44,870 bases of DNA, taken from the UHGV virus genome UHGV-0384602; one strand, written 5' to 3'. The stretch comes from a virus. Of this stretch, positions 8,907 to 43,909 are shown one piece after another. The notes under the pieces were generated by a model. That model made no database searches. It had not been told where the DNA came from and saw only the letters and a list, made by a program, of their open reading frames with translations. The position numbers were made by a program, and so were the translations under genes. Within the stretch, counting starts at the first letter, position 1. Each line of letters opens with the position of its first letter.

Positions 8907-9347
8907 TTAAAACTCCCCGAGAACCTGGTCAATCTTGCCGCAGTCAAACACCCACGGCATCGTATTACCGGTTTTAGCGTTGGCATTATCCGGTTGTTTC
9001 TGGAACGCAACACTACGTGCCGTGATGATGTCGCCGCTGACCTTGTTGCGGATCACAATAACGTTATTCCCCCATGTGGCAGAAGACTGGCTCTGTGCGT
9101 TATACGCCAGCGACAATTTTTTATTTGTCGGTGATGTCTTCAGAAGGTTAACGGTAATCGTCCCGCTTTTATCTGCATGGAGGCTGTGCATCACTTCACC
9201 ATCAGCACCGATGGTCATGGTGTTTTTAGGACCGCCCATCGCAACCACAATCCCCTCTTCAGAACTTGCCGAACCGTACCCGAGGTCAATCGAACCGGTC
9301 GGCCCGGTCAGCGTCGCAGTGACATCCATAAAAGAATAGGTAGACAT
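8907..9347 (-). CDS. tail tube protein
   Basis: 146-aa ORF immediately downstream of the sheath gene and upstream of the chaperone pair. Canonical sheath-tube-chaperone-tape-measure order. Confidence 0.5.
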   Translation of the reverse strand: MSTYSFMDVTATLTGPTGSIDLGYGSASSEEGIVVAMGGPKNTMTIGADGEVMHSLHADKSGTITVNLLKTSPTNKKLSLAYNAQSQSSATWGNNVIVIRNKVSGDIITARSVAFQKQPDNANAKTGNTMPWVFDCGKIDQVLGEF

Positions 9348-9357
9348 TCACTTCCCC

Positions 9358-10503
9358 TTAGCGAACAACGTTAATCTGTACGTCAGCGTAATGAACCGCG
9401 CCTGCAAGTTTTATTGCAGCCTGAATCACCGGAGCCTTACGGGCTTCACGTTCTGATTGTGCCTGTTCATCCAGCGGCTGGGCGTATACGTAATAACCTT
9501 TGGGCAGTGTGTCACCTGATGACAACTGACCAAGGTCGCCCCCGTTCCATACGCCCGGAGCAATCAGTCCATTCTGAACGGCCTGATCCAGTGATTTTTC
9601 AACATTTGATAACAGTCGGGTAATACCAGCTTCAGTCTGGGGAACTTTCGTGGTGCTGGTATAAAGCAGGTTATAGAGGTTGGTCTGCACATAATTCTGT
9701 AACCAGTCCAGGCCGTGGCGTTCATCAAAGAAATCGCCGTTAGCCATCACTCCCTGCTGGAGGATAGCCGTATCATTCTGGTAGTACACGAATACATTGC
9801 AGTTTTTTGCATCAAGTGCCGATGCCTGGCTGACTGTCAGTGTTTCATACCCGACACCCGGCTCCTGCTTAAACTTGAGCGTAATCGCGGTATTACTGCC
9901 ATTGAAATTAACCGTGAATACCCGGCCAAATGCAGATAACGCAGCGTATTTATTACCCGATGAATACTGAATAAAACTGCGTGAATATCCGGCGGTTTTC
10001 AGTTTTGATGCCAAATCATCGCTGGATGCAGTCTGCAGGCATTTATCATCGCTTGTCGTAATCGCCAGAGTACGGCTTACAGAAGAGGATTCGATCGCCG
10101 CAGCCACTTTCAGCCAGTCTGCATCCGGAATATCTTCATCGTCTGCAATCCCCAGCCCATACCATGAAGTATAATCGAGCATGGCATTCACAGCCTGCTC
10201 CAGCGTCTCAGGCGTGGCCTGTTCGCTGTCACCCTTCGTTTTCACCCAACGACCAACAAAAACCTCCTGAGGTTTCGGTGATTGTGAGAAAAACACCTGC
10301 GCAGCCTTATATTCTGGTGATTCCACGCCAAAATCTTTTCCAATATCTTCCGCGGCAGAATAACGGCGAATGCGCTCACTTACCGGAATGATTGTGGACG
10401 GGCCGAGAATGAGTAATGCACCAAAATTTCGCCCTGATGCTGCACGCGGCGACATGATCACATCAACATTAACAACGTTTGATACAGGCAAGCCCTGTGC
10501 CAT
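9358..10503 (-). CDS. tail sheath protein
   Basis: 381-aa ORF preceding the tube gene. Size and synteny fit a sheath protein. Confidence 0.5.
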
Positions 10504-21368: not shown

Positions 21369-21564
21369 TATTCACCTCTCGCAGCCTTTCTTCTGTCTTC
21401 TCTGATTTTGAAGTACAGATTTGTCAGATAAGTCAAAAAGCCCAGAACTAGACTTCCCAGCACACCAATTGCAGCCCACTGCGTATTACCGTGAAGGAGA
21501 TCGGTGAGTAACATCGATGGAGATCGGTTCGTGTCACTTTCACAGAACCGTTTTTAAATTACCT

Positions 21565-22314
21565 TCACTGATCTCCTTCGGTCAACGGAGATTGTATTTT
21601 CCGCATTGATTCTCCTTTAAGTTCGATCTTGATACTGCCATGAACCAGTCGATCTAGGATGGCATCCGCATGTGTGGAGTCTCCGATCATTTTGTACCAG
21701 TTTTCCACCGGCAACTGGCTCACTACGATGATTGAGCCTCGTTGGTACATCAGATCCACTATTTCCAGCAGGTCGCTACGCTGTTCTGATGAGAGAGGTT
21801 CCAGCCCCCAGTCATCCAGAAGCAGCAGATCGCTATTATTCAGCCTGGTCAAAAGTTTGCTGTATCTTCCATCAGCATGCCCCTGATAGCACTGTTCCAT
21901 CAGCGCTTTAAGGCGATAATAGTAGACCTTGTATCCCTGTCGGCAGGCATTATGACCAAGTGCACATGCCAGGAACGTTTTACCGCTGCCGGTGGCCCCG
22001 GTCAGTAAAATATTTTGTTTCAGGGTTAACCAGTTTCCCTGACTGAGTGAACGGATGAGGGCCCTGTCCAGCCCTCTATTGTTACGATAATCCAGCTTTG
22101 ATAACTCAGCATTAAGTCTGAACCGTGCATGTTTGATCAGACGCTCTGCCTTCCTGTTTTCACGGCAGGTTAGTTCTTCTGCTGTCAGTAATGACAGGCG
22201 TTCTTCGAAGCCCAGCTCCTGGTATGTGCCCGGTTGAGCAAGTTGCTTTTTAAGCGCATCACGGAAGCCGGTGAGTTTAAGTGCGGTCAGTTGTTCGTAA
22301 AGATGATTCATCAT
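21565..22314 (-). CDS. istB: IS21-family helper ATPase IstB
   Basis: 249 aa with Walker A GATGSGKT and Walker B LLLLDDWG; typical IstB. Confidence 0.85.
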   Translation of the reverse strand: MMNHLYEQLTALKLTGFRDALKKQLAQPGTYQELGFEERLSLLTAEELTCRENRKAERLIKHARFRLNAELSKLDYRNNRGLDRALIRSLSQGNWLTLKQNILLTGATGSGKTFLACALGHNACRQGYKVYYYRLKALMEQCYQGHADGRYSKLLTRLNNSDLLLLDDWGLEPLSSEQRSDLLEIVDLMYQRGSIIVVSQLPVENWYKMIGDSTHADAILDRLVHGSIKIELKGESMRKIQSPLTEGDQ

Positions 22315-22325
22315 TGGATCCCGTA

Positions 22326-23867
22326 TCAGTGGTAATACTCACTGCCGCGTACGTTTTCGTGTTCCATCGTGGATAACAGATCTGGTTTTGGATCCTGAAC
22401 AGGTTGTTTATCCAGACCTTTTTCCAGGATCGATTTAATACCTGACAGACGCCATACCTTTGTTTTCAGAGCTCTTGCACATGCTGCATTAAGTCTGGCT
22501 TTACTGTATTTTTTATGAAGGTTCAGGAGTCCAAGGCAGAAGCGATAGCTTTGTTCCGGATGTGGACGAGAGTTCAGTATATGAAGCACATAACTATGAG
22601 TTTCACTGCCTATGTGCCCCGCCCATTCCAGAAGACGCTCTGGCGTCCAGGTGGCATGCTGTCGATGAGCTTCAGGCATGTGCTCGTTGCGGGTACTGTA
22701 GCCATAAGTACGCTTGCGCGGGTGCACAGCAACCTCCTGCCCCTGATTGAAGAGTCTTACCAGTTCTCCGGAGATCCATGCTTCCAGTTGCTGGCCTAAC
22801 AGCGAACATGGAACCGAGTAGTAATGTTTGTCGATTTCCACGTGGTAATCGGCATGAACTCTGACTTTCTTCACCAGGGTGTAACTGTAACTGGCTTCAG
22901 GAAGAGGCTTCAGTGCGGGTTTATCAAGCTGGATGAAGAGTTCTGCACGTGAATAACCCAACTTCTGCATTATTTTGTTATTCAGTCTTTCCAGCAACTC
23001 CCGAATGCGCTGATTAAGCGATGCAAGGCTGTAGAAGATCTCATGCCTGATTCGGGCCATGATCCAGCGTTCAACAACCTGAACGCCAACTTCAGCTTTG
23101 GCTTTATCTTTCGGTTTACGTGGCCGCGCAGGCAAAACTGCGACATTATAATGCTCAAGCATCTGCTGGTAGGTAGGGTTAACGTCAGGATCATACTTAC
23201 ATGCCCTGGATGTGGCGCTTTTCAGATTGTCCGGAACAACAAGTTCAGGAACGCCACCCAACCACTGGAAGCAGCGAACATGACTCATCACCCAGTCTTC
23301 AAGCTGCTGAGACCAGGTGGCCTCTGCCCATGTGTAACTTGATGCCCCGAGAACAGCTACGATGACCTGAGCAGTTCTTATTTCTCCGGTCTCAGGGTCG
23401 GTAACGCCAACGGTAGGTCCACAGTAATCAACGAAAAGTTTTTCGCCAGCTTTATGTACCTGACGCATTGATGGTGAAGTGGTTTTGAGCCATTCACGGT
23501 ACATCCGGCAGTAATGGTTATAGCTGTAAAAACCGCCTGGATTACGCTCACAGTATTCTTCCCAGAGTAGCTGCAGCGTCACGCATTTATTACGCAGTTC
23601 CCGGTGTACTGTAGCCCAGTCAGGCAGAGAGTGCTTCTTCATCTTAACCTGGGTCTGAAGGAACGCATGTTTTAGTTTTGTATCATCCCATCCTGTAGGT
23701 AAGGGCCACTGCTTTATGCCAAGTTGAGCCGCCCGATTAGCATATCTGGATACAACGGAAGGGGAGATTGCAAGACTACGACCAATTTGTCGATGGCTGA
23801 GTCCAACACCGTATTTAAGCCTAAGAATTTCTTTAAGTTTTCTCATAGAAATTGGAACTGTTGGCAT
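22326..23867 (-). CDS. istA: IS21-family transposase IstA
   Basis: 513 aa with N-terminal HTH and a DDE integrase-like core. Immediately upstream of istB, as in IS21-family elements. Confidence 0.85.
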   Translation of the reverse strand: MPTVPISMRKLKEILRLKYGVGLSHRQIGRSLAISPSVVSRYANRAAQLGIKQWPLPTGWDDTKLKHAFLQTQVKMKKHSLPDWATVHRELRNKCVTLQLLWEEYCERNPGGFYSYNHYCRMYREWLKTTSPSMRQVHKAGEKLFVDYCGPTVGVTDPETGEIRTAQVIVAVLGASSYTWAEATWSQQLEDWVMSHVRCFQWLGGVPELVVPDNLKSATSRACKYDPDVNPTYQQMLEHYNVAVLPARPRKPKDKAKAEVGVQVVERWIMARIRHEIFYSLASLNQRIRELLERLNNKIMQKLGYSRAELFIQLDKPALKPLPEASYSYTLVKKVRVHADYHVEIDKHYYSVPCSLLGQQLEAWISGELVRLFNQGQEVAVHPRKRTYGYSTRNEHMPEAHRQHATWTPERLLEWAGHIGSETHSYVLHILNSRPHPEQSYRFCLGLLNLHKKYSKARLNAACARALKTKVWRLSGIKSILEKGLDKQPVQDPKPDLLSTMEHENVRGSEYYH

Positions 23868-24288
23868 AGGTATCCTTTACCGGAATGGCAAAAGATACAG
23901 ATCAACACACCTGTGAAGTTCCAATAACATTGATGGAGATCACTGAATAACAAAATGAGTCAAAAGTGATCTCCATCGATGTTATTCAGCGATCTGTTCA
24001 AATGTTATTACCCGATCTCGATGGAAGTTATTGAGTGATCTCCTTTCATGAAAATACGCAGCCCACTGTGACGGACTGACCTGATCCAACCACTGTAAAA
24101 ACCAGTATCCCGCACTACCAGCGGATGTTCCGTAGGCAATGCCAGTAGAGATTTTGTCCATTGATTTCATAGCAACGCCTCCGCAAGTAACGGATTGCGT
24201 AGTTCTTATATTGGGAAGGGGAAAAAAGAAGGCCGCGGCATAACTATCACTGATGAGTTCAGGATAGCCAGTGGCTACGGCTCAGTTA

Positions 24289-37937: not shown

Positions 37938-38156
37938 ATGTACTTGACACTTCAGGAGTGGAATGCACGCCAGCGACGCCCAAGAAGCCTTGAAACAGTT
38001 CGTCGATGGGTGCGCGAATGCAGGATATTCCCTCCTCCGGTTAAGGATGGAAGAGAATATCTGTTCCACGAATCAGCGGTAAAGGTTGACTTAAATCGAC
38101 CAGTAACAGGTAGCCTTTTGAAGAGGATCAGAAATGGGAAGAAGGCGAAGTCATGA
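37938..38156 (+). CDS. xis: excisionase Xis
   Basis: 72 aa MYLTLQEWNARQRRPRSLETVRRWVRECRIFPPPVKDGREYLFHESAVKVDLNRPVTG..; matches lambda Xis (219 nt). Confidence 0.9.
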   Translation: MYLTLQEWNARQRRPRSLETVRRWVRECRIFPPPVKDGREYLFHESAVKVDLNRPVTGSLLKRIRNGKKAKS

Positions 38157-39204
38157 GCGCCGGGATTTACCCCCTAACCTTTATATAAGAAACAATGGAT
38201 ATTACTGCTACAGGGACCCAAGGACGGGTAAAGAGTTTGGATTAGGCAGAGACAGGCGAATCGCAATCACTGAAGCCATACAGGCCAACATTGAGTTATT
38301 TTCAGGACACAAACACAAGCCTCTGACAGCGAGAATCAACAGTGATAATTCCGTTACGCTACATTCATGGCTTGATCGCTACGAAAAAATCCTGGCCAGC
38401 AGAGGAATCAAGCAGAAGACACTCATAAATTACATGAGCAAAATTAAAGCAATAAGGAGGGGGCTGCCTGATGCTCCACTTGAAGACATCACCACAAAAG
38501 AAATTGCGGCAATGCTCAATGGATACATAGACGAGGGCAAGGCGGCGTCAGCCAAGTTAATCAGATCAACACTGAGCGATGCATTCCGAGAGGCAATAGC
38601 TGAAGGCCATATAACAACAAACCCTGTCGCTGCCACTCGCGCAGCAAAATCAGAGGTAAGGAGATCAAGACTTACGGCTGACGAATACCTGAAAATTTAT
38701 CAAGCAGCAGAATCATCACCATGTTGGCTCAGACTTGCAATGGAACTGGCTGTTGTTACCGGGCAACGAGTTGGTGATTTATGCGAAATGAAGTGGTCTG
38801 ATATCGTAGATGGATATCTTTATGTCGAGCAAAGCAAAACAGGCGTAAAAATTGCCATCCCAACAACATTGCATGTTGATGCTCTCGGGATATCAATGAA
38901 GGAAACACTTGATAAATGCAAAGAGATTCTTGGCGGAGAAACCATAATTGCATCTACTCGTCGTGAACCGCTTTCATCCGGCACAGTATCAAGGTATTTT
39001 ATGCGCGCACGAAAAGCATCAGGTCTTTCCTTCGAAGGGGATCCGCCTACCTTTCACGAGTTGCGCAGTTTGTCTGCAAGACTCTATGAGAAGCAGATAA
39101 GCGATAAGTTTGCTCAACATCTTCTCGGGCATAAGTCGGACACCATGGCATCACAGTATCGTGATGACAGAGGCAGGGAGTGGGACAAAATTGAAATCAA
39201 ATAA
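38134..39204 (+). CDS. int: integrase Int (tyrosine recombinase)
   Basis: 356 aa MGRRRSHERRDLPPNLYIRNNGYYCYRDPRTGKEFGLGRDRRIAITEAIQ..; essentially lambda Int (1071 nt), overlapping xis as in lambda. Confidence 0.95.
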   Translation: MGRRRSHERRDLPPNLYIRNNGYYCYRDPRTGKEFGLGRDRRIAITEAIQANIELFSGHKHKPLTARINSDNSVTLHSWLDRYEKILASRGIKQKTLINYMSKIKAIRRGLPDAPLEDITTKEIAAMLNGYIDEGKAASAKLIRSTLSDAFREAIAEGHITTNPVAATRAAKSEVRRSRLTADEYLKIYQAAESSPCWLRLAMELAVVTGQRVGDLCEMKWSDIVDGYLYVEQSKTGVKIAIPTTLHVDALGISMKETLDKCKEILGGETIIASTRREPLSSGTVSRYFMRARKASGLSFEGDPPTFHELRSLSARLYEKQISDKFAQHLLGHKSDTMASQYRDDRGREWDKIEIK

Positions 39205-39450
39205 TGATTTTATTTTGACTGATAGTGACCTGTTCGTTGCAACAAATTGATAAGCAATGCTTTTTTATAATGCCAACTTAGTATAAAAAAGCTGAACGAG
39301 AAACGTAAAATGATATAAATATCAATATATTAAATTAGATTTTGCATAAAAAACAGACTACAAAATACTGTAAAACACAACATATGCAGTCACTATGAAT
39401 CAACTACTTAGATGATATTAGTGACCTGTAACAGAGCATTAGCGCAAGGT
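39205..39450. other. attP: complete lambda attP (P-prime arm, core, P arm)
   Basis: Reverse complement of the lambda core GCTTTTTTATACTAA at 39278-39292. P-prime arm sequence next to int (..GATAGTGACCTGTTCGTTGCAACAAATTGATAAGCAATGC). P arm on the far side (..GCATAAAAAACAGACTACAAAATACTGTAAAACACAACATATGCAGTCACTATGAATCAACTACTTAGATG..). Both arms are phage-type. Confidence 0.85.
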
Positions 39451-39480: not shown

Positions 39481-39940
39481 TCAACTCACTGGGTTAGTTG
39501 AATTTACAACCATGCTCAGTATCTCGATAAGCGCAGGGAGATGATGCAGTGGTGGGCGGACTGGCTTGATGAAAGTGTGCTGTAATCCTCATATCCAACC
39601 TAAGAGATATGCACAATTTTGTGAATAAGATATTGAGAATTAGCAAAAGTTTTATTTTGCGTATCATCAATTCAGAATACAAAGTCACATGCTAATGTTC
39701 TGCATTGGTATCTTTTGCTTATCCATGTCTACATTATCGCCAAAATAATAGGTTTTGTCTATCAATTATTTGAATTACTTCCATGAAATTATAACGCACT
39801 TGTAATTTTTGATTATTTTTACCTCTCAAGTGTTTTGTTTCTTCTATCTCTTTGTATTTTTAGCGAAAGTATGCCATATTGCATTCTAATATAACGTGGC
39901 GTTGTTTCTGTTTAATGATTTAAATAGTTCAACATAATAT

Positions 39941-41116
39941 TTGCTAACAAATTATATCCAAGCAAATCATATGATATTATCATTACAATATATTAGAGGA
40001 ATAGCATCATTACTTGTTGTTTTATTCCACTTCAGATTCTTGCTAAATGAGCACTACTCTCAGAAAGATTTGGGTGACCTATTATTTGGGAATGGGCTGT
40101 CTGGAGTTGATATATTCTTCATATTAAGTGGATTTATCATCGTATACTCAACAAGAAAGAAGGAAGTTAATGATACTTTCTCATTCTCAATTAGAAGAAT
40201 ATTTAGAATATACCCATTACTAATCACATGCTGTTGCATGTATTACATAATAAACACTCAATTTCTAACCTATGCTACAGTTGAAAACTTTAGAACCTTA
40301 CTTATTTCCATCATTCCATTAAATATAAACTGGAATGAAGGCGCTCCATTCTTTGCCTATAATCTTTTGTACCCGGCCTGGACGATAACATATGAAATTG
40401 GTTTCTATGTTTTTTTCGGGGTATCAATGTCTATTTCGCATAAATACAGAACAATTATCTGTTCTGTTTTTATAATCATGGTGGTCTCATTTACACAATA
40501 CTATGTAAATGGAAATATATCATTTTCAGGTGATGTTAGTGCAGGGTTATTTACAGATAACTGGTTATTAGGATATACAAATGTTATTACATCTCCAATG
40601 ATGTATGAATTCGTTATTGGGATGTTTCTTTCTGAAATATTTACAAACATCAACGAAAGCAAAAGTATTAAAAGGATACTTTCAAAGTATTCGCTTCAAA
40701 TACTATGGATTTCATGTGGTATATCCATAATATTATTCATTATCCAGCGACCTTATGGGCATGGATTGAATGGATTTGGGACTATGGCGATGATACTTAT
40801 TGCATCATCATTAGTATATGAATACTGCAATATAACACCCAAAATAAAAATATTTAATTTCCTTGGTGAAATATCATATTCTTTATATCTAATTCACGCC
40901 GTGATACTTGCTTTGTTCTTCTATTATAAGGCAGACCTTGCTGAAATTGGCATAACTGGTGGATTTTCTGTGTTTTTTTCCTTGGTTATTATCTCAATAA
41001 CTGCATCATATCCAATATATATTCTCATTGAAAAGCCAATGATAAATATAGGTAAACGTTTAATTGACAAGAGAAATAAGAGCATTAACAAAAAAGAAAC
41101 CGAAATAACAGCGTGA
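39941..41116 (+). CDS. family-3 membrane acyltransferase (Oac/OafA-like; candidate O-antigen acetyltransferase)
   Basis: 391-aa polytopic membrane protein. N-terminal motif IRGIASLLVVLFHF (conserved Arg..His of acyltransferase family 3). Very AT-rich codon usage. Start may be the Met at 39971. Confidence 0.65.
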   Translation: MLTNYIQANHMILSLQYIRGIASLLVVLFHFRFLLNEHYSQKDLGDLLFGNGLSGVDIFFILSGFIIVYSTRKKEVNDTFSFSIRRIFRIYPLLITCCCMYYIINTQFLTYATVENFRTLLISIIPLNINWNEGAPFFAYNLLYPAWTITYEIGFYVFFGVSMSISHKYRTIICSVFIIMVVSFTQYYVNGNISFSGDVSAGLFTDNWLLGYTNVITSPMMYEFVIGMFLSEIFTNINESKSIKRILSKYSLQILWISCGISIILFIIQRPYGHGLNGFGTMAMILIASSLVYEYCNITPKIKIFNFLGEISYSLYLIHAVILALFFYYKADLAEIGITGGFSVFFSLVIISITASYPIYILIEKPMINIGKRLIDKRNKSINKKETEITA

Positions 41117-41153
41117 TAATGACAAAGTTAGTGCCGGGATACCCCGGCACTAT

Positions 41154-42491
41154 TTAATCTATTTCGTAAGTGACAGTGATTATCACTTCTGCATTATTAC
41201 CCAAAACATTTTGATATATATTCATATTACCTGATAATGTAGTTGCTCCAGTAAGAGTTATATAACTACTATTTGCATCAACCCTTGGAAGTAAAGCGGT
41301 AACTGCTGTTGTTAAATTATTATAGTAGCCTGTACTTCCAACATATGCAGCTTTATTGCTTGATACATATGGTAACCCTCCAATTCTGAAACCATCTCCT
41401 GACCCAATTAAAGTTATACCAAGGTGACATGTTGCCGTTATGATATTGCCACTCCTGACATAATTTCCTTTCTGCTGATAATATGTGGCATTACCACCTA
41501 CAGTCGGAATCCAAACTCCAGTTTCTATATCACCACATGACCAGTCTTCTGCTGTTGTTAGTTTTCCAGTAACAATAAATTTACTTCCACCACCAGAATT
41601 ATAAGGAACAAAAATTGGATTTATTCTTGCATAAGTGTTACCGGTCTGCTCATTAAGATCATTTCTATCAATAAGAACTTGACCATTTTCGAAGTTTGAA
41701 ATCTGGCAGTCTGTTACACTCCAGTCTCTTAACTTCACATCAGCATCCATGACACCAATAAGCTTACCAGCATTACCAATTTTTTCTTTATGCATATTTA
41801 CATACACATTTCTTACCGTAACAGACTGAGGGAACAGATAATTAGCAGGATTAGTTTTATCACTTAAAACAGATATTACCCAAGGTCTGTATTGAGTACT
41901 TACTTCACAATAAAATCCATCAATAAGCGTTCCAGATGCCGCTGGCCCAAGTAGTATTCCACCTGTAGAGTGATGCGCACTACCTCCAATTACTCTCCCC
42001 TTAACGCAGTTAATATAGGCAAAATATCCTAAATCTTGATTGTCATAGGCTGACATAGCACAGTCTCTAACTGTTACTCGAGAATTTCCTCCGTCATAAG
42101 CTGAGCCATCAGTTTTCTTACCAACTATTGATATAAAGTTACCAATAGCAACTCGACTATAAAAAGTTTTTTTATAACACCCCTCAATTAAAATATCCCA
42201 GTTTTCAAACTGAGCATATATATCATAAATGCTGGCATTCCCATAATCTATGAAATCACAATATCTTATTTTCGGCGTATAAACGGCACTTTTTATCTTT
42301 ATACCACCTAATGCTCTCTCCCCACCTGTGAATCTAATGCCAGTAACGGTGTAATCGCCTTGATAGAAATTATCTGCGGTAGGATTATTTTCGTCAGAAT
42401 CATCACCCAATATAATAGCAAATTCACTCCCTGAATAATTAATTGTCGCCCCCTTATTTGAATATATAGTTACAGGTCTTATAAACTCCAA
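41154..42491 (-). CDS. beta-helix (tailspike/depolymerase-like) protein, possibly truncated or frameshifted at its 5' end
   Basis: 445-codon ORF with repetitive G/N/T-rich beta-strand-like segments. No in-frame ATG: the frame opens after a TGA and the first usable start is TTG. A nearby ATG at 42574 is in another frame, separated by an A7 tract (42522-42528). Confidence 0.4.
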   Translation of the reverse strand: MEFIRPVTIYSNKGATINYSGSEFAIILGDDSDENNPTADNFYQGDYTVTGIRFTGGERALGGIKIKSAVYTPKIRYCDFIDYGNASIYDIYAQFENWDILIEGCYKKTFYSRVAIGNFISIVGKKTDGSAYDGGNSRVTVRDCAMSAYDNQDLGYFAYINCVKGRVIGGSAHHSTGGILLGPAASGTLIDGFYCEVSTQYRPWVISVLSDKTNPANYLFPQSVTVRNVYVNMHKEKIGNAGKLIGVMDADVKLRDWSVTDCQISNFENGQVLIDRNDLNEQTGNTYARINPIFVPYNSGGGSKFIVTGKLTTAEDWSCGDIETGVWIPTVGGNATYYQQKGNYVRSGNIITATCHLGITLIGSGDGFRIGGLPYVSSNKAAYVGSTGYYNNLTTAVTALLPRVDANSSYITLTGATTLSGNMNIYQNVLGNNAEVIITVTYEID

Positions 42492-42883
42492 AGAATTACT
42501 TATTAGATACTCTCCATAAGGAAAAAAATCTCAACTGGTGGTGAGTACTTTGGTCTGGAGTTTACGTAATTCATAATATTGATTACACCAACATCATAGA
42601 TAATCGCCACCTTCTGGCGAGGAGCTCCTGATGCAATTAATCGCCAGGCCTACGCCCATTATTCATGGGTAAATTTTGGACGGAGCCCCCAATTCCATCC
42701 TCAATTCTCCCTCGCACTGAGGAGTAGTAAGTGCAATTATTTAAAAAATCGCAAACAGAATATTATCATTTATTCTTGCATTCTGTTAATTAAAACCACA
42801 CATAAAAACGTTGATACTTGATAAGTAAGTAGAGTATTATTAATGGTTTTAATAACGAACCTTTTAATCATGAGAAGCCTCAA

Positions 42884-43909
42884 ATGACTAGTACCAATAA
42901 CATAACAAGAAAAAAAATGGATGGAGTAACAATCTTAAGATTTATAGCTGCTTTTTATGTGTTTATTTTTCACATTAACATGAGAGTCCCCGTTAATTTT
43001 GGAGAGCTTATTAATAAAACCATTAGCAATGGCGTCATTGGCATGAGTATTTTCTTCATGCTTTCTGGTTTTGTTTTGACTTATAATTACTATGGTTCCT
43101 TGTCAAACAATTACTTCAGGAAGCGAATAGCAAGAATATTTCCAGCCTATTTATTTTGTGGGCTTTTAACCCTCCCATTTTTGTTATCCAGCGATGCAAG
43201 CTTTTTAAAAATGATTGCAAGCATATTCTTGTTTGTTACTGGAATGCAATCATGGATTTATCAGACCTTCGATTTTTGGAATTTTAGCGGTACCTGGTCA
43301 ATATCAGTGGAATTGTTTTTTTATGCCCTGTTTCCATTTTTGATAAAAAACATCAACAAAAACAATGTAATTTATGTTTTACTTTTTTCATATTTATCTT
43401 CAGCATTATTAATCCCATTATCTGATATAATTCAGGGACCTGTAGTTTGGTCCGTATATTACGCAACTCCAATATACAGGTTACCAGAATTTGTGGTGGG
43501 CGTCTGTATCGCAATACTTTTTTTAAATGGCTATCGTGTTAACCATTATACATGGCTATTAAGCATTTTATTATTTCTGTATGCTACCACCCAGCAAAAC
43601 AATAACTCCATGGGGGTGAACTATCTCACAATTCCTGCGATATCAATTATGTTATTGCACCTGGCAAAAATCAACATCAAAAACAACATTGCAAACAGAG
43701 CGATCATTTACTTTGGAGATATAAGTTATTCGTTTTATTTGATGCAATTACCTATATTATATTACCTGGATCATAATAAAAACTCATTTATTCTTAACTA
43801 TGGTTTTTTTAGCTGGCTTGTACTTTTTGTTATTAATACTGCAATGGCATCATTATCTTATCACTTTCTGGAGAAGAACGATAAAATCAGAAAAATAATT
43901 ACATCCTGA
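42884..43909 (+). CDS. family-3 membrane acyltransferase (second copy, divergent)
   Basis: 341-aa polytopic membrane protein with ILRFIAAFYVFIFHIN (Arg..His motif), RIARIFPAY and FGDISYSFYLMQ blocks typical of acyltransferase family 3. AT-rich. Confidence 0.65.
   Translation: MTSTNNITRKKMDGVTILRFIAAFYVFIFHINMRVPVNFGELINKTISNGVIGMSIFFMLSGFVLTYNYYGSLSNNYFRKRIARIFPAYLFCGLLTLPFLLSSDASFLKMIASIFLFVTGMQSWIYQTFDFWNFSGTWSISVELFFYALFPFLIKNINKNNVIYVLLFSYLSSALLIPLSDIIQGPVVWSVYYATPIYRLPEFVVGVCIAILFLNGYRVNHYTWLLSILLFLYATTQQNNNSMGVNYLTIPAISIMLLHLAKINIKNNIANRAIIYFGDISYSFYLMQLPILYYLDHNKNSFILNYGFFSWLVLFVINTAMASLSYHFLEKNDKIRKIITS

What the first reader, a model, noticed from the sequence alone, without database searches (positions are those of the whole stretch)
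41154..42574. Beta-helix ORF lacks an ATG start; an A7 homopolymer separates it from the only nearby ATG
The 445-codon frame opens right after a TGA and has no ATG; its first possible start is TTG at 42491. An ATG at 42574 (MNYVNSRPKYSPPVE..) is in a different frame and would fuse to the long ORF only with a 1-nt change inside the A7 tract at 42522-42528. It is either a 5'-truncated tailspike remnant, a homopolymer sequencing error, or a slippage-prone tract. No head-binding N-terminal domain is present.
Basis: seen in the sequence. Interest (0 to 1): 0.5.

Follow-up and report, generated by a model that had tools for sequence, protein, structure and literature searches.

The report
Decayed tailspike gene fragment in prophage
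The ORF is the last three quarters of a P22-type phage tailspike gene that arrived with a neighbouring O-acetyltransferase gene and then lost one T from a T8 run, so it is an ordinary dead gene remnant.

Summary
The 445-codon minus-strand ORF (41154-42491) starts at a TTG. The upstream ATG (42574) is in another frame. A 7-base homopolymer (42522-42528) separates them.

The 3.1 kb from 42597 to 39500 is 98.7% identical to part of a P22-like prophage in E. coli 2018-05-5CC. That part covers codons 169-649 of an intact 649-aa tailspike, a convergent O-acetyltransferase gene and the last 84 nt of intS.

The left junction lies in a 13-nt microhomology (ATGATGTTGGTGT) with the 3' remnant of a DNA invertase gene. 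The head-binding domain and the first conserved rung of the beta-helix are therefore gone.

The ATG-frame peptide (NYVNSRPKYSPPVEIFF) is itself tailspike sequence. The intact donor-type gene has T8, and so do two Brazilian isolates that carry the same truncated copy. The window, REL606/BL21 and about 46 other complete genomes have T7. The frameshift is therefore a real 1-nt deletion acquired after truncation, not a sequencing error and not a programmed signal. No stimulatory RNA structure and no usable ribosome-binding site were found.

Verdict: a doubly disabled tailspike pseudogene that hitch-hiked with an acetyltransferase gene. It is ordinary and of low interest.

The parts
41154..42597 (-). 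3' fragment of a P22-type tailspike gene. It covers codons 169-649 plus the stop of the intact gene and is interrupted by the 1-nt deletion.
   Evidence: 98.2% nt identity to the 3' 1445 nt of the intact 1950-nt 'phage head-binding domain-containing protein' CDS in L008. 82% aa identity to the 648-aa tailspike P0002.
41154..42491 (-). The 445-codon TTG-initiated ORF of the finding. It is the longest open part of the fragment and is annotated 'hypothetical protein' by PGAP.
   Evidence: No Pfam, PHROG or PADLOC family matches. No Shine-Dalgarno sequence at a usable distance (read).
42522..42528 (-). T7 homopolymer (A7 on the + strand), the site of a 1-nt deletion relative to the ancestral T8.
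   Evidence: T8 in the intact gene (L008) and in two truncated copies (L009, L012). T7 in the window, L001, L002, L003 and L010.
42503..42574 (-). Short ATG-initiated frame MNYVNSRPKYSPPVEIFF|LMESI*. Its first 18 codons are tailspike codons 177-194, and the ATG is an internal Met codon of the tailspike.
   Evidence: It is collinear with DYVNTRPKYSPPVSVYFPDGNYLIS in P0002 and identical to L008 residues 177-194.
42585..42597 (-). Recombination junction: the 13-nt microhomology ATGATGTTGGTGT shared by the invertase gene and the tailspike gene. It encodes DVGV in the same frame in both.
   Evidence: Three-way alignment of the window, L008 and the L004 invertase.
42585..42695 (-). 3' remnant of a serine DNA invertase gene (HTH_7 region), with two stop codons and one indel.
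   Evidence: 87.5% nt identity to nt 431-542 of the vB_EcoM-689R6 invertase region. HTH_7 is matched after repair of the stops. PGAP marks a pseudogene here.
39500..42597 (.). 3.1-kb block imported from a P22-like podovirus: tailspike fragment, acetyltransferase gene and intS tail. It has 33.6% G+C against 47.6% for the whole window.
   Evidence: A single blastn alignment at 98.7% identity to L008 6001-9100. G+C values.
39941..41116 (+). Intact Acyl_transf_3 O-acetyltransferase gene, convergent with the tailspike fragment. It is the only intact gene of the block.
   Evidence: Pfam PF01757 at 1e-30. PHROG O-acetyltransferase at 2.7e-72. Same position and length as in L008.
41129..41152 (.). G+C-rich hairpin between the convergent genes, resembling a two-way terminator.
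   Evidence: 10-bp stem, 7 G-C pairs, found on both strands.
39502..39585 (+). Last 84 nt of a P22-like intS gene. This marks the right end of the imported block.
   Evidence: The block ends at L008 9100, inside intS (CDS 9015-10172). PGAP annotates an 84-nt pseudogene here, 'missing N-terminus'.

Best explanation
The ORF is a non-functional remnant of a P22-type tailspike gene. An ancestor of this temperate myovirus integrates at the lambda att site and originally carried an invertible tail-fibre segment with a DNA invertase. It acquired a 3.1-kb piece of a P22-like podovirus by illegitimate recombination. The left crossover used a 13-nt microhomology between the invertase HTH-coding region and tailspike codon 169. 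The right crossover lies 84 nt from the end of intS. The only complete gene in the piece is an O-acetyltransferase, the likely selected cargo; that part is inferred. The tailspike piece lacks the head-binding domain, the linker and the first conserved strand of the beta-helix domain (DFGxxGDG). It therefore cannot attach to any virion and probably cannot cap its helix. The long ORF is still open because the event is recent, not because the ORF is maintained by selection.
For: - Homology: P0002 is a 648-aa tailspike with PF09008 and PF12708, 82% identical over 100% of the query. It sits in a canonical P22-like late operon followed by a convergent acyltransferase and an integrase.
- Near-identical donor type: window 42597..39500 is 98.7% identical to L008, a P22-like prophage at tRNA-Arg/yfdC with an intact 649-aa tailspike, a 1146-nt acyltransferase gene and intS.
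- Junction at nucleotide resolution: the invertase and tailspike sequences overlap in ATGATGTTGGTGT.
- The ATG-frame peptide is collinear with the tailspike.
- Tract length: T8 in the intact L008 gene and in the truncated L009 and L012 copies, where PGAP calls a 485-aa ORF. T7 in the window, L001-L003 and L010. 48 of 52 complete-genome hits have the query's length and 2 are +1 nt.
- The T8 truncated allele also keeps the ancestral GGA at codon 386, as in L008 and the outgroup. T8 is therefore ancestral.
- Among truncated alleles there are only 2 synonymous and 2-3 non-synonymous changes plus the frameshift.
- The residues lost include the nearly invariant G161, A162 and G164 of the family alignment. 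In the AF2 model the break falls between strand 165-168 and helix 170-181.
- No Pfam, PHROG or PADLOC family matches the ORF.
- Close relatives of the phage, with a 98% identical structural module, carry stf-tfa-tfa'-stf'-invertase at this position.
Against: The 445-codon frame has no internal stop, and PGAP annotates it as a protein. The 90%-identity cluster of that protein has 200 member sequences. A sigma-70-like match (10 of 12) lies upstream at 42789-42762 on the same strand, so transcription is possible. There are too few substitutions to show relaxed selection statistically. No expression data were examined.
Confidence: 0.9

Rival explanations
1. The truncated protein is made, either from TTG 42491 or an internal start, or from the GTG or ATG in T8 strains. 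It would act in the lysogen as a soluble O-antigen-binding or O-antigen-cleaving protein alongside the two acetyltransferases. The T7/T8 tract would be an on/off switch.
For: The frame is intact over 445 codons. A T7/T8 length polymorphism exists among strains. The ORF is embedded between two O-acetyltransferase genes. A promoter-like match lies upstream. From general knowledge, P22 tailspike lacking only its head-binding domain still folds.
Against: The truncation removes more than the head-binding domain. It cuts into the conserved start of the beta-helix domain. No Shine-Dalgarno sequence lies at a usable distance from TTG 42491, ATG 42574 or GTG 42610. The protein has no signal peptide and so would have no route to the O-antigen. 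T7 and T8 follow lineage (2 versus 48 genomes), with a linked SNP, rather than switching freely. There is no sign of purifying selection.
Confidence: 0.05
2. The T7 tract is a programmed -1 ribosomal frameshift or transcriptional slippage site. It would join the ATG-initiated 18 codons to the long frame.
For: In the ATG frame the tract reads A UUU UUU C, which contains the canonical slippery heptamer U_UUU_UUC. A -1 shift yields exactly the T8 product.
Against: The 91 nt from the tract onward fold no better than shuffled sequence (z = +1.13; 176 of 200 shuffles fold at least as well). No SD-like stimulator lies upstream. The intact gene and the ancestral truncated allele are simply in frame with T8. 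More distant homologues have no homopolymer at this position (GTGTACTTTCC in L005). The arrangement is therefore derived, not conserved. The ATG is an internal tailspike codon without a ribosome-binding site.
Confidence: 0.03
3. The A7 tract is a homopolymer sequencing or assembly error in this window, and the true sequence is A8.
For: Homopolymers are common error sites. Two assemblies do show 8.
Against: T7 is present in 48 complete genomes from many laboratories and platforms, including REL606 and many BL21 derivatives. It was read directly in five sequences. The two T8 genomes also differ at a linked ancestral SNP.
Confidence: 0.02

Closest known systems
P22-like prophage tailspike with convergent O-acetyltransferase and integrase (E. 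coli 2018-05-5CC prophage at tRNA-Arg/yfdC; the Sf6 tailspike-oac-int arrangement from general knowledge)
   Same: The same tailspike receptor-binding domain (98% nt identity), the same convergent Acyl_transf_3 gene, the same intergenic hairpin and the same intS 3' end, all in the same order.
   Different: The window copy lacks tailspike codons 1-168 and almost all of intS. It carries a 1-nt deletion. It also sits in a myovirus with lambda-type Int and att, not in a P22-like podovirus.
Solved tailspikes of Sf6, P22, HK620 and Det7 (right-handed parallel beta-helix O-antigen depolymerases)
   Same: The AF2 model of the intact homologue P0002 finds these as its best PDB matches (Foldseek E 5e-13 to 1e-6). 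The head-binding domain is shared with Sf6 and P22 (PF09008).
   Different: The receptor-binding domain has no detectable sequence relative in the PDB. TM-scores are only 0.3-0.45. Substrate and catalytic residues are unknown.
Invertible tail-fibre segments with a serine invertase (Mu G/Gin, P1 C/Cin, e14 P/Pin)
   Same: An invertase HTH remnant lies just downstream of the tail fibre and tfa genes. Relatives with a 98% identical structural module have stf-tfa-tfa'-stf'-invertase at this position.
   Different: In the window the alternative cassette is replaced by an acetyltransferase gene. The invertase is reduced to about 110 nt with two stop codons, so no inversion system remains. The start-less ORF is not an alternative tail-fibre cassette, because it lies on the same strand as the tail fibre and is tailspike sequence.
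Lambda b region (non-essential DNA between the tail-fibre genes and attP)
   Same: The same map position: tail fibre, tfa, accessory or junk DNA, attP core GCTTTTTTATACTAA, then int transcribed towards attP.
   Different: The content is unrelated to lambda b-region genes.

Membership tests
P22-type tailspike protein | N-terminal head-binding (particle-attachment) domain, PF09008 | tested here: not met
   Pfam finds nothing in the 445-aa ORF. The intact L008 homologue has PF09008 at residues 4-114. The window's homology starts at codon 169.
P22-type tailspike protein | Homologous right-handed beta-helix receptor-binding domain | tested here: met
   82% aa identity to P0002 and 98% nt identity to the L008 tailspike. 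The AF2 model is beta-helical with pLDDT above 90 from about residue 150. The best Foldseek matches are Sf6, Det7, P22 and HK620 tailspikes.
P22-type tailspike protein | Complete beta-helix domain, including its conserved N-terminal DFGxxGDGxxDD strand and capping helix | tested here: not met
   The nearly invariant G161, A162 and G164 lie upstream of the break. The break is at residue 169. The TTG ORF starts at about residue 205 and so also lacks helix 170-181 and strands 190-201.
P22-type tailspike protein | Uninterrupted reading frame with a start codon and ribosome-binding site | tested here: not met
   A 1-nt deletion (T8 to T7) splits the fragment. No SD sequence lies at a usable spacing before TTG 42491, ATG 42574 or GTG 42610.
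Programmed -1 ribosomal frameshift site | Slippery heptamer X_XXY_YYZ in the upstream frame | tested here: met
   U_UUU_UUC in the ATG frame.
Programmed -1 ribosomal frameshift site | Stimulatory downstream RNA structure or upstream SD-like element | tested here: not met
   Fold of 42530-42440: -11.2 kcal/mol against a shuffle mean of -14.3, z = +1.13. No SD-like motif lies upstream.
Programmed -1 ribosomal frameshift site | The two-frame arrangement is conserved among homologues | tested here: not met
   The intact gene and the ancestral truncated allele are in one frame (T8). P0002-type genes have no homopolymer at this position.
Phase-variable (contingency) homopolymer locus | Tract length varies within a strain or population and switches expression of a functional gene | not testable with these tools
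   Only between-strain T7 (48 genomes) versus T8 (2 genomes) is seen, and it follows a linked SNP. Read-level data are not available.
Serine DNA invertase (Gin/Pin/Cin/Hin) | N-terminal resolvase catalytic domain plus C-terminal HTH_7, both intact | tested here: not met
   Only about 110 nt of the HTH-coding 3' end remain, with two stop codons and one indel. HTH_7 is matched at 7e-06 only after the stops are repaired.

The most novel reading that the evidence does not exclude
The headless tailspike fragment is still expressed in lysogens, at full length in T8 strains and through rare slippage or the TTG start in T7 strains. It would serve as an O-antigen-binding or O-antigen-trimming accessory to the two flanking O-acetyltransferases, with the T-run acting as a heritable on/off switch. 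That would make it a domesticated tailspike used for lysogenic conversion or superinfection exclusion rather than for infection.
Probability: 0.04. Interest if true: 0.45.

Novelty: new member of a known kind. Interest (0 to 1): 0.12.

Why it matters
The main value is for annotation. WP_000394418.1 and its relatives are labelled 'hypothetical protein' in REL606, BL21 and about 50 other complete E. coli genomes. They should be marked as a tailspike pseudogene fragment. The locus is also a clean, nucleotide-resolved example of how a phage picks up a conversion gene. A 13-nt microhomology crossover imported an O-acetyltransferase gene from a P22-like podovirus into a lambda-att myovirus. The import carried fragments of both neighbouring genes and destroyed a tail-fibre invertase. 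A homopolymer deletion followed as the next step of decay. None of this is surprising to a phage genomicist.

Tried and rejected
- **Invertible tail-fibre cassette.** I asked whether the start-less ORF could be the variable C-terminal cassette of an invertible tail-fibre gene, prompted by the invertase match. Rejected: the ORF is on the same strand as the tail fibre, it is tailspike sequence, and the invertase is only a dead 3' stub.
- **PDB sequence search** of the ORF found no hit at E <= 0.01.
- **Family searches** of the ORF against Pfam, PHROGs and PADLOC found nothing.
- **Selection test** by polarised substitutions. There are too few post-truncation changes to decide: 2 synonymous, 2-3 non-synonymous and 1 frameshift. 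Most window-versus-L008 differences (18 synonymous, 3 non-synonymous) fall on the intact L008 branch.
- **Literature.** Studier et al. 2009 (PubMed 19765592) and Casjens & Grose 2016 (PMC4969182) are not held. One search failed on syntax. The papers that were found say nothing about this locus.
- **Suspected second frameshift in the tail-fibre gene across the window ends.** This was an artefact of joining the window ends, which lack 10 nt that are present in the chromosomal copies.

Full report
**1. What the sequence shows**

- On the minus strand an ORF runs from TTG 42491 to the stop at 41154, 445 codons.
- Its frame opens directly after TGA 42533-42531. The first in-frame ATG is codon 146, at 42056.
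- Upstream, ATG 42574 opens a different frame, MNYVNSRPKYSPPVEIFFLMESI*.
- A run of seven T (A7 on the + strand) lies at 42522-42528, between the two frames.
- Adding one T (T8) or removing two (T5) fuses the frames. T6 and T9 do not.

The one correction is that only A8, not A6, would fuse the frames.

**2. Where the window comes from**

- The region is 99.8-100% identical to a prophage that sits next to ybhB-bioA, the lambda attachment site, in 50 of 5426 complete E. coli genomes. These include REL606 and the BL21 family.
- The window itself is the excised (attP) form. The lambda core GCTTTTTTATACTAA lies at 39278-39292, between a lambda-type integrase (PF09003 and PF00589; 38134-39204) and the acetyltransferase gene.
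- The structural module is 98% identical to induced temperate myoviruses such as vB_EcoM-611R5.
- On the minus strand the order is: tail fibre, tail-fibre assembly gene, acetyltransferase (opposite strand), the ORF, acetyltransferase (opposite strand), attP, int. The ORF therefore lies in the equivalent of lambda's b region.

**3. What the ORF is**

- A protein search returned 41 relatives. The best full-length one is P0002, 648 aa, named 'phage tailspike protein'. It has PF09008 Head_binding plus PF12708, and it is 82% identical over the whole query.
- P0002 sits at the end of a canonical P22-like late operon (coat, gp4, gp10, gp26, gp7, gp20, gp16, mnt/arc). A convergent acyltransferase and an integrase follow it.
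- Other relatives carry the same receptor-binding domain behind different N-terminal adaptor domains (PF18668, PF03906, PF27114, PF25692). This is usual for modular tailspikes.
- All of them retain the motif ...DFGAxGDGxxDDTxAL...VNSRPKYSxPVxVxFPxGxYL....
- An AlphaFold model of P0002 is a beta-helix with pLDDT above 90 from about residue 150 onward. Its best PDB matches are the Sf6, Det7, P22 and HK620 tailspikes.
- By sequence there is no PDB relative. The truncated ORF alone matches no Pfam, PHROG or PADLOC family.

**4. The donor and the junctions**

- One complete genome, E. coli 2018-05-5CC (locus L008), has a P22-like prophage at tRNA-Arg/yfdC. Its intact 649-aa tailspike, 1146-nt acetyltransferase gene and intS match window 42597..39500 in a single 3.1-kb alignment at 98.7% identity.
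- The block begins at tailspike codon 169 and ends 84 nt before the end of intS. PGAP annotates that 84-nt stub as a pseudogene.
- The block has 33.6% G+C, against 47.6% for the whole window.
- Immediately upstream of the block, 42695-42585 is 87.5% identical to the 3' end of a phage DNA invertase gene. This remnant has two stop codons (CAA to TAA, CAG to TAG) and one indel. HTH_7 is detectable only after repair.
- A three-way alignment shows that the invertase and tailspike sequences overlap in exactly 13 shared bases, ATGATGTTGGTGT (42597-42585). These bases encode DVGV in the same frame in both genes. This is the signature of a microhomology-mediated illegitimate crossover.
- Close relatives of the phage carry stf-tfa-tfa'-stf'-invertase at this position. 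The invertase stub is therefore what remains of an ancestral invertible tail-fibre system.

**5. The homopolymer**

- The ATG-frame peptide is not an independent leader. NYVNSRPKYSPPVEIFF is tailspike residues 178-194, and the ATG is internal Met177.
- The intact L008 gene has T8 at this site. Two Brazilian isolates (L009, L012) carry the same truncated copy in the same prophage and also have T8. PGAP calls a 485-aa ORF there, starting at the GTG equivalent to window 42610.
- The window, REL606, NRZ14408, AST205 and PRO_A-1407 have T7. In all, 48 complete genomes match the query length exactly and 2 are one base longer.
- The T8 truncated allele also retains the ancestral GGA at codon 386, as in L008 and the outgroup. 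All T7 alleles have GGG.

The order of events was therefore truncation first, then T8 to T7. A sequencing error is excluded by the number of independent assemblies.

**6. Is anything still functional?**

- The fragment lacks the head-binding domain, the linker and the nearly invariant G161, A162 and G164.
- The break falls between strand 165-168 and the capping helix 170-181 of the model. The TTG ORF starts at about residue 205 and so also lacks the first two rungs.
- None of the three candidate starts has a Shine-Dalgarno sequence at a usable distance.
- In the ATG frame the tract forms a formal slippery heptamer, U_UUU_UUC. The downstream 91 nt fold worse than shuffled sequence (z = +1.13), and the two-frame layout is derived, not conserved.
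- Among truncated alleles I found only 2 synonymous and 2-3 non-synonymous changes plus the frameshift. That is compatible with neutrality but too few for a test. The long open frame is explained by youth.
- The one intact gene in the imported block is the O-acetyltransferase (PF01757; PHROG O-acetyltransferase, 2.7e-72). It is the plausible selected cargo. This last step is inference.

**7. Comparison with what is known, and verdict**

- The tailspike, convergent O-acetyltransferase and integrase arrangement is the standard end of P22-like prophages. It is shown here in L005 and L008, and it is known for Sf6 oac from general knowledge.
- Gene fragments left by illegitimate recombination, and homopolymer frameshifts in such fragments, are routine in prophage accessory regions.
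- The fragment fails the membership tests for a functional tailspike: no attachment domain, an incomplete beta-helix and a broken frame. It is a remnant of that family, not a member in working order.
- I found no paper that describes this particular remnant.
- Interest is low. The main practical outcome is a better annotation for a 'hypothetical protein' present in BL21 and REL606.

Noticed in passing
window 42585-42720 (- strand): Dead 3' stub of a serine DNA invertase gene (HTH_7 region) with two C-to-T stop codons and one indel. It is the remnant of an invertible tail-fibre system that close relatives (vB_EcoM-611R5) still have as stf-tfa-tfa'-stf'-invertase.
   Followed up: yes
window 39502-39585 (+ strand): An 84-nt tail of a P22-like intS gene marks the right end of the imported block. 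It lies about 210 nt from the lambda-type att core, so the phage carries a fragment of a second, unrelated integrase next to its own.
   Followed up: yes
window 39278-39292: Exact lambda att core GCTTTTTTATACTAA between int (38134-39204) and the acetyltransferase gene. The window is therefore the excised attP form of a prophage that uses the lambda attB next to ybhB/bioA.
   Followed up: partly
window 1 / 44870 (ends): Both window ends lie inside the tail-fibre gene. Joining 44870 to 1 lacks 10 nt (GTGGTTGTCA) that the chromosomal copies have, so a naive circular join creates a false frameshift. With the 10 nt the tail fibre is one continuous ORF of about 363 aa. PGAP splits it oddly into a 'pseudogene' and a 'glycine-rich domain protein' in the same frame.
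   Followed up: yes
window 42884-43909 (+) and 39941-41116 (+): Two different Acyl_transf_3 O-acetyltransferase genes flank the fragment. Both lie in low-G+C DNA (about 33% against 47.6% for the window). The first occupies the place where relatives have the alternative tail-fibre cassette. Its origin was not traced.
   Followed up: partly
window 42229-42230 (codon 292 of the tailspike frame): An adjacent double substitution TC to AT (Ser to Ile) is shared by the window and strain NRZ14408 but absent from REL606, the T8 alleles and the intact gene. This is a tandem-base change inside the dead fragment.
   Followed up: no
L001 (REL606, NC_012967.1 792546-795000): In E. coli B the same prophage is defective upstream of the tail-fibre end. 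The baseplate J and DUF2612 genes of the window are replaced by a large hypothetical protein and a truncated 'anti-CBASS protein Acb1 family' pseudogene.
   Followed up: no
window 21480-24061: This stretch is 100% identical to Escherichia phages PhiR12_1 and PhiR12_2, where it is annotated as hypothetical proteins. It is a mosaic segment shared with otherwise different phages.
   Followed up: no
window 41129-41152: A perfect 10-bp G+C-rich hairpin lies between the convergent tailspike fragment and the acetyltransferase gene. It is conserved in the P22-like donor and looks like a bidirectional terminator.
   Followed up: partly
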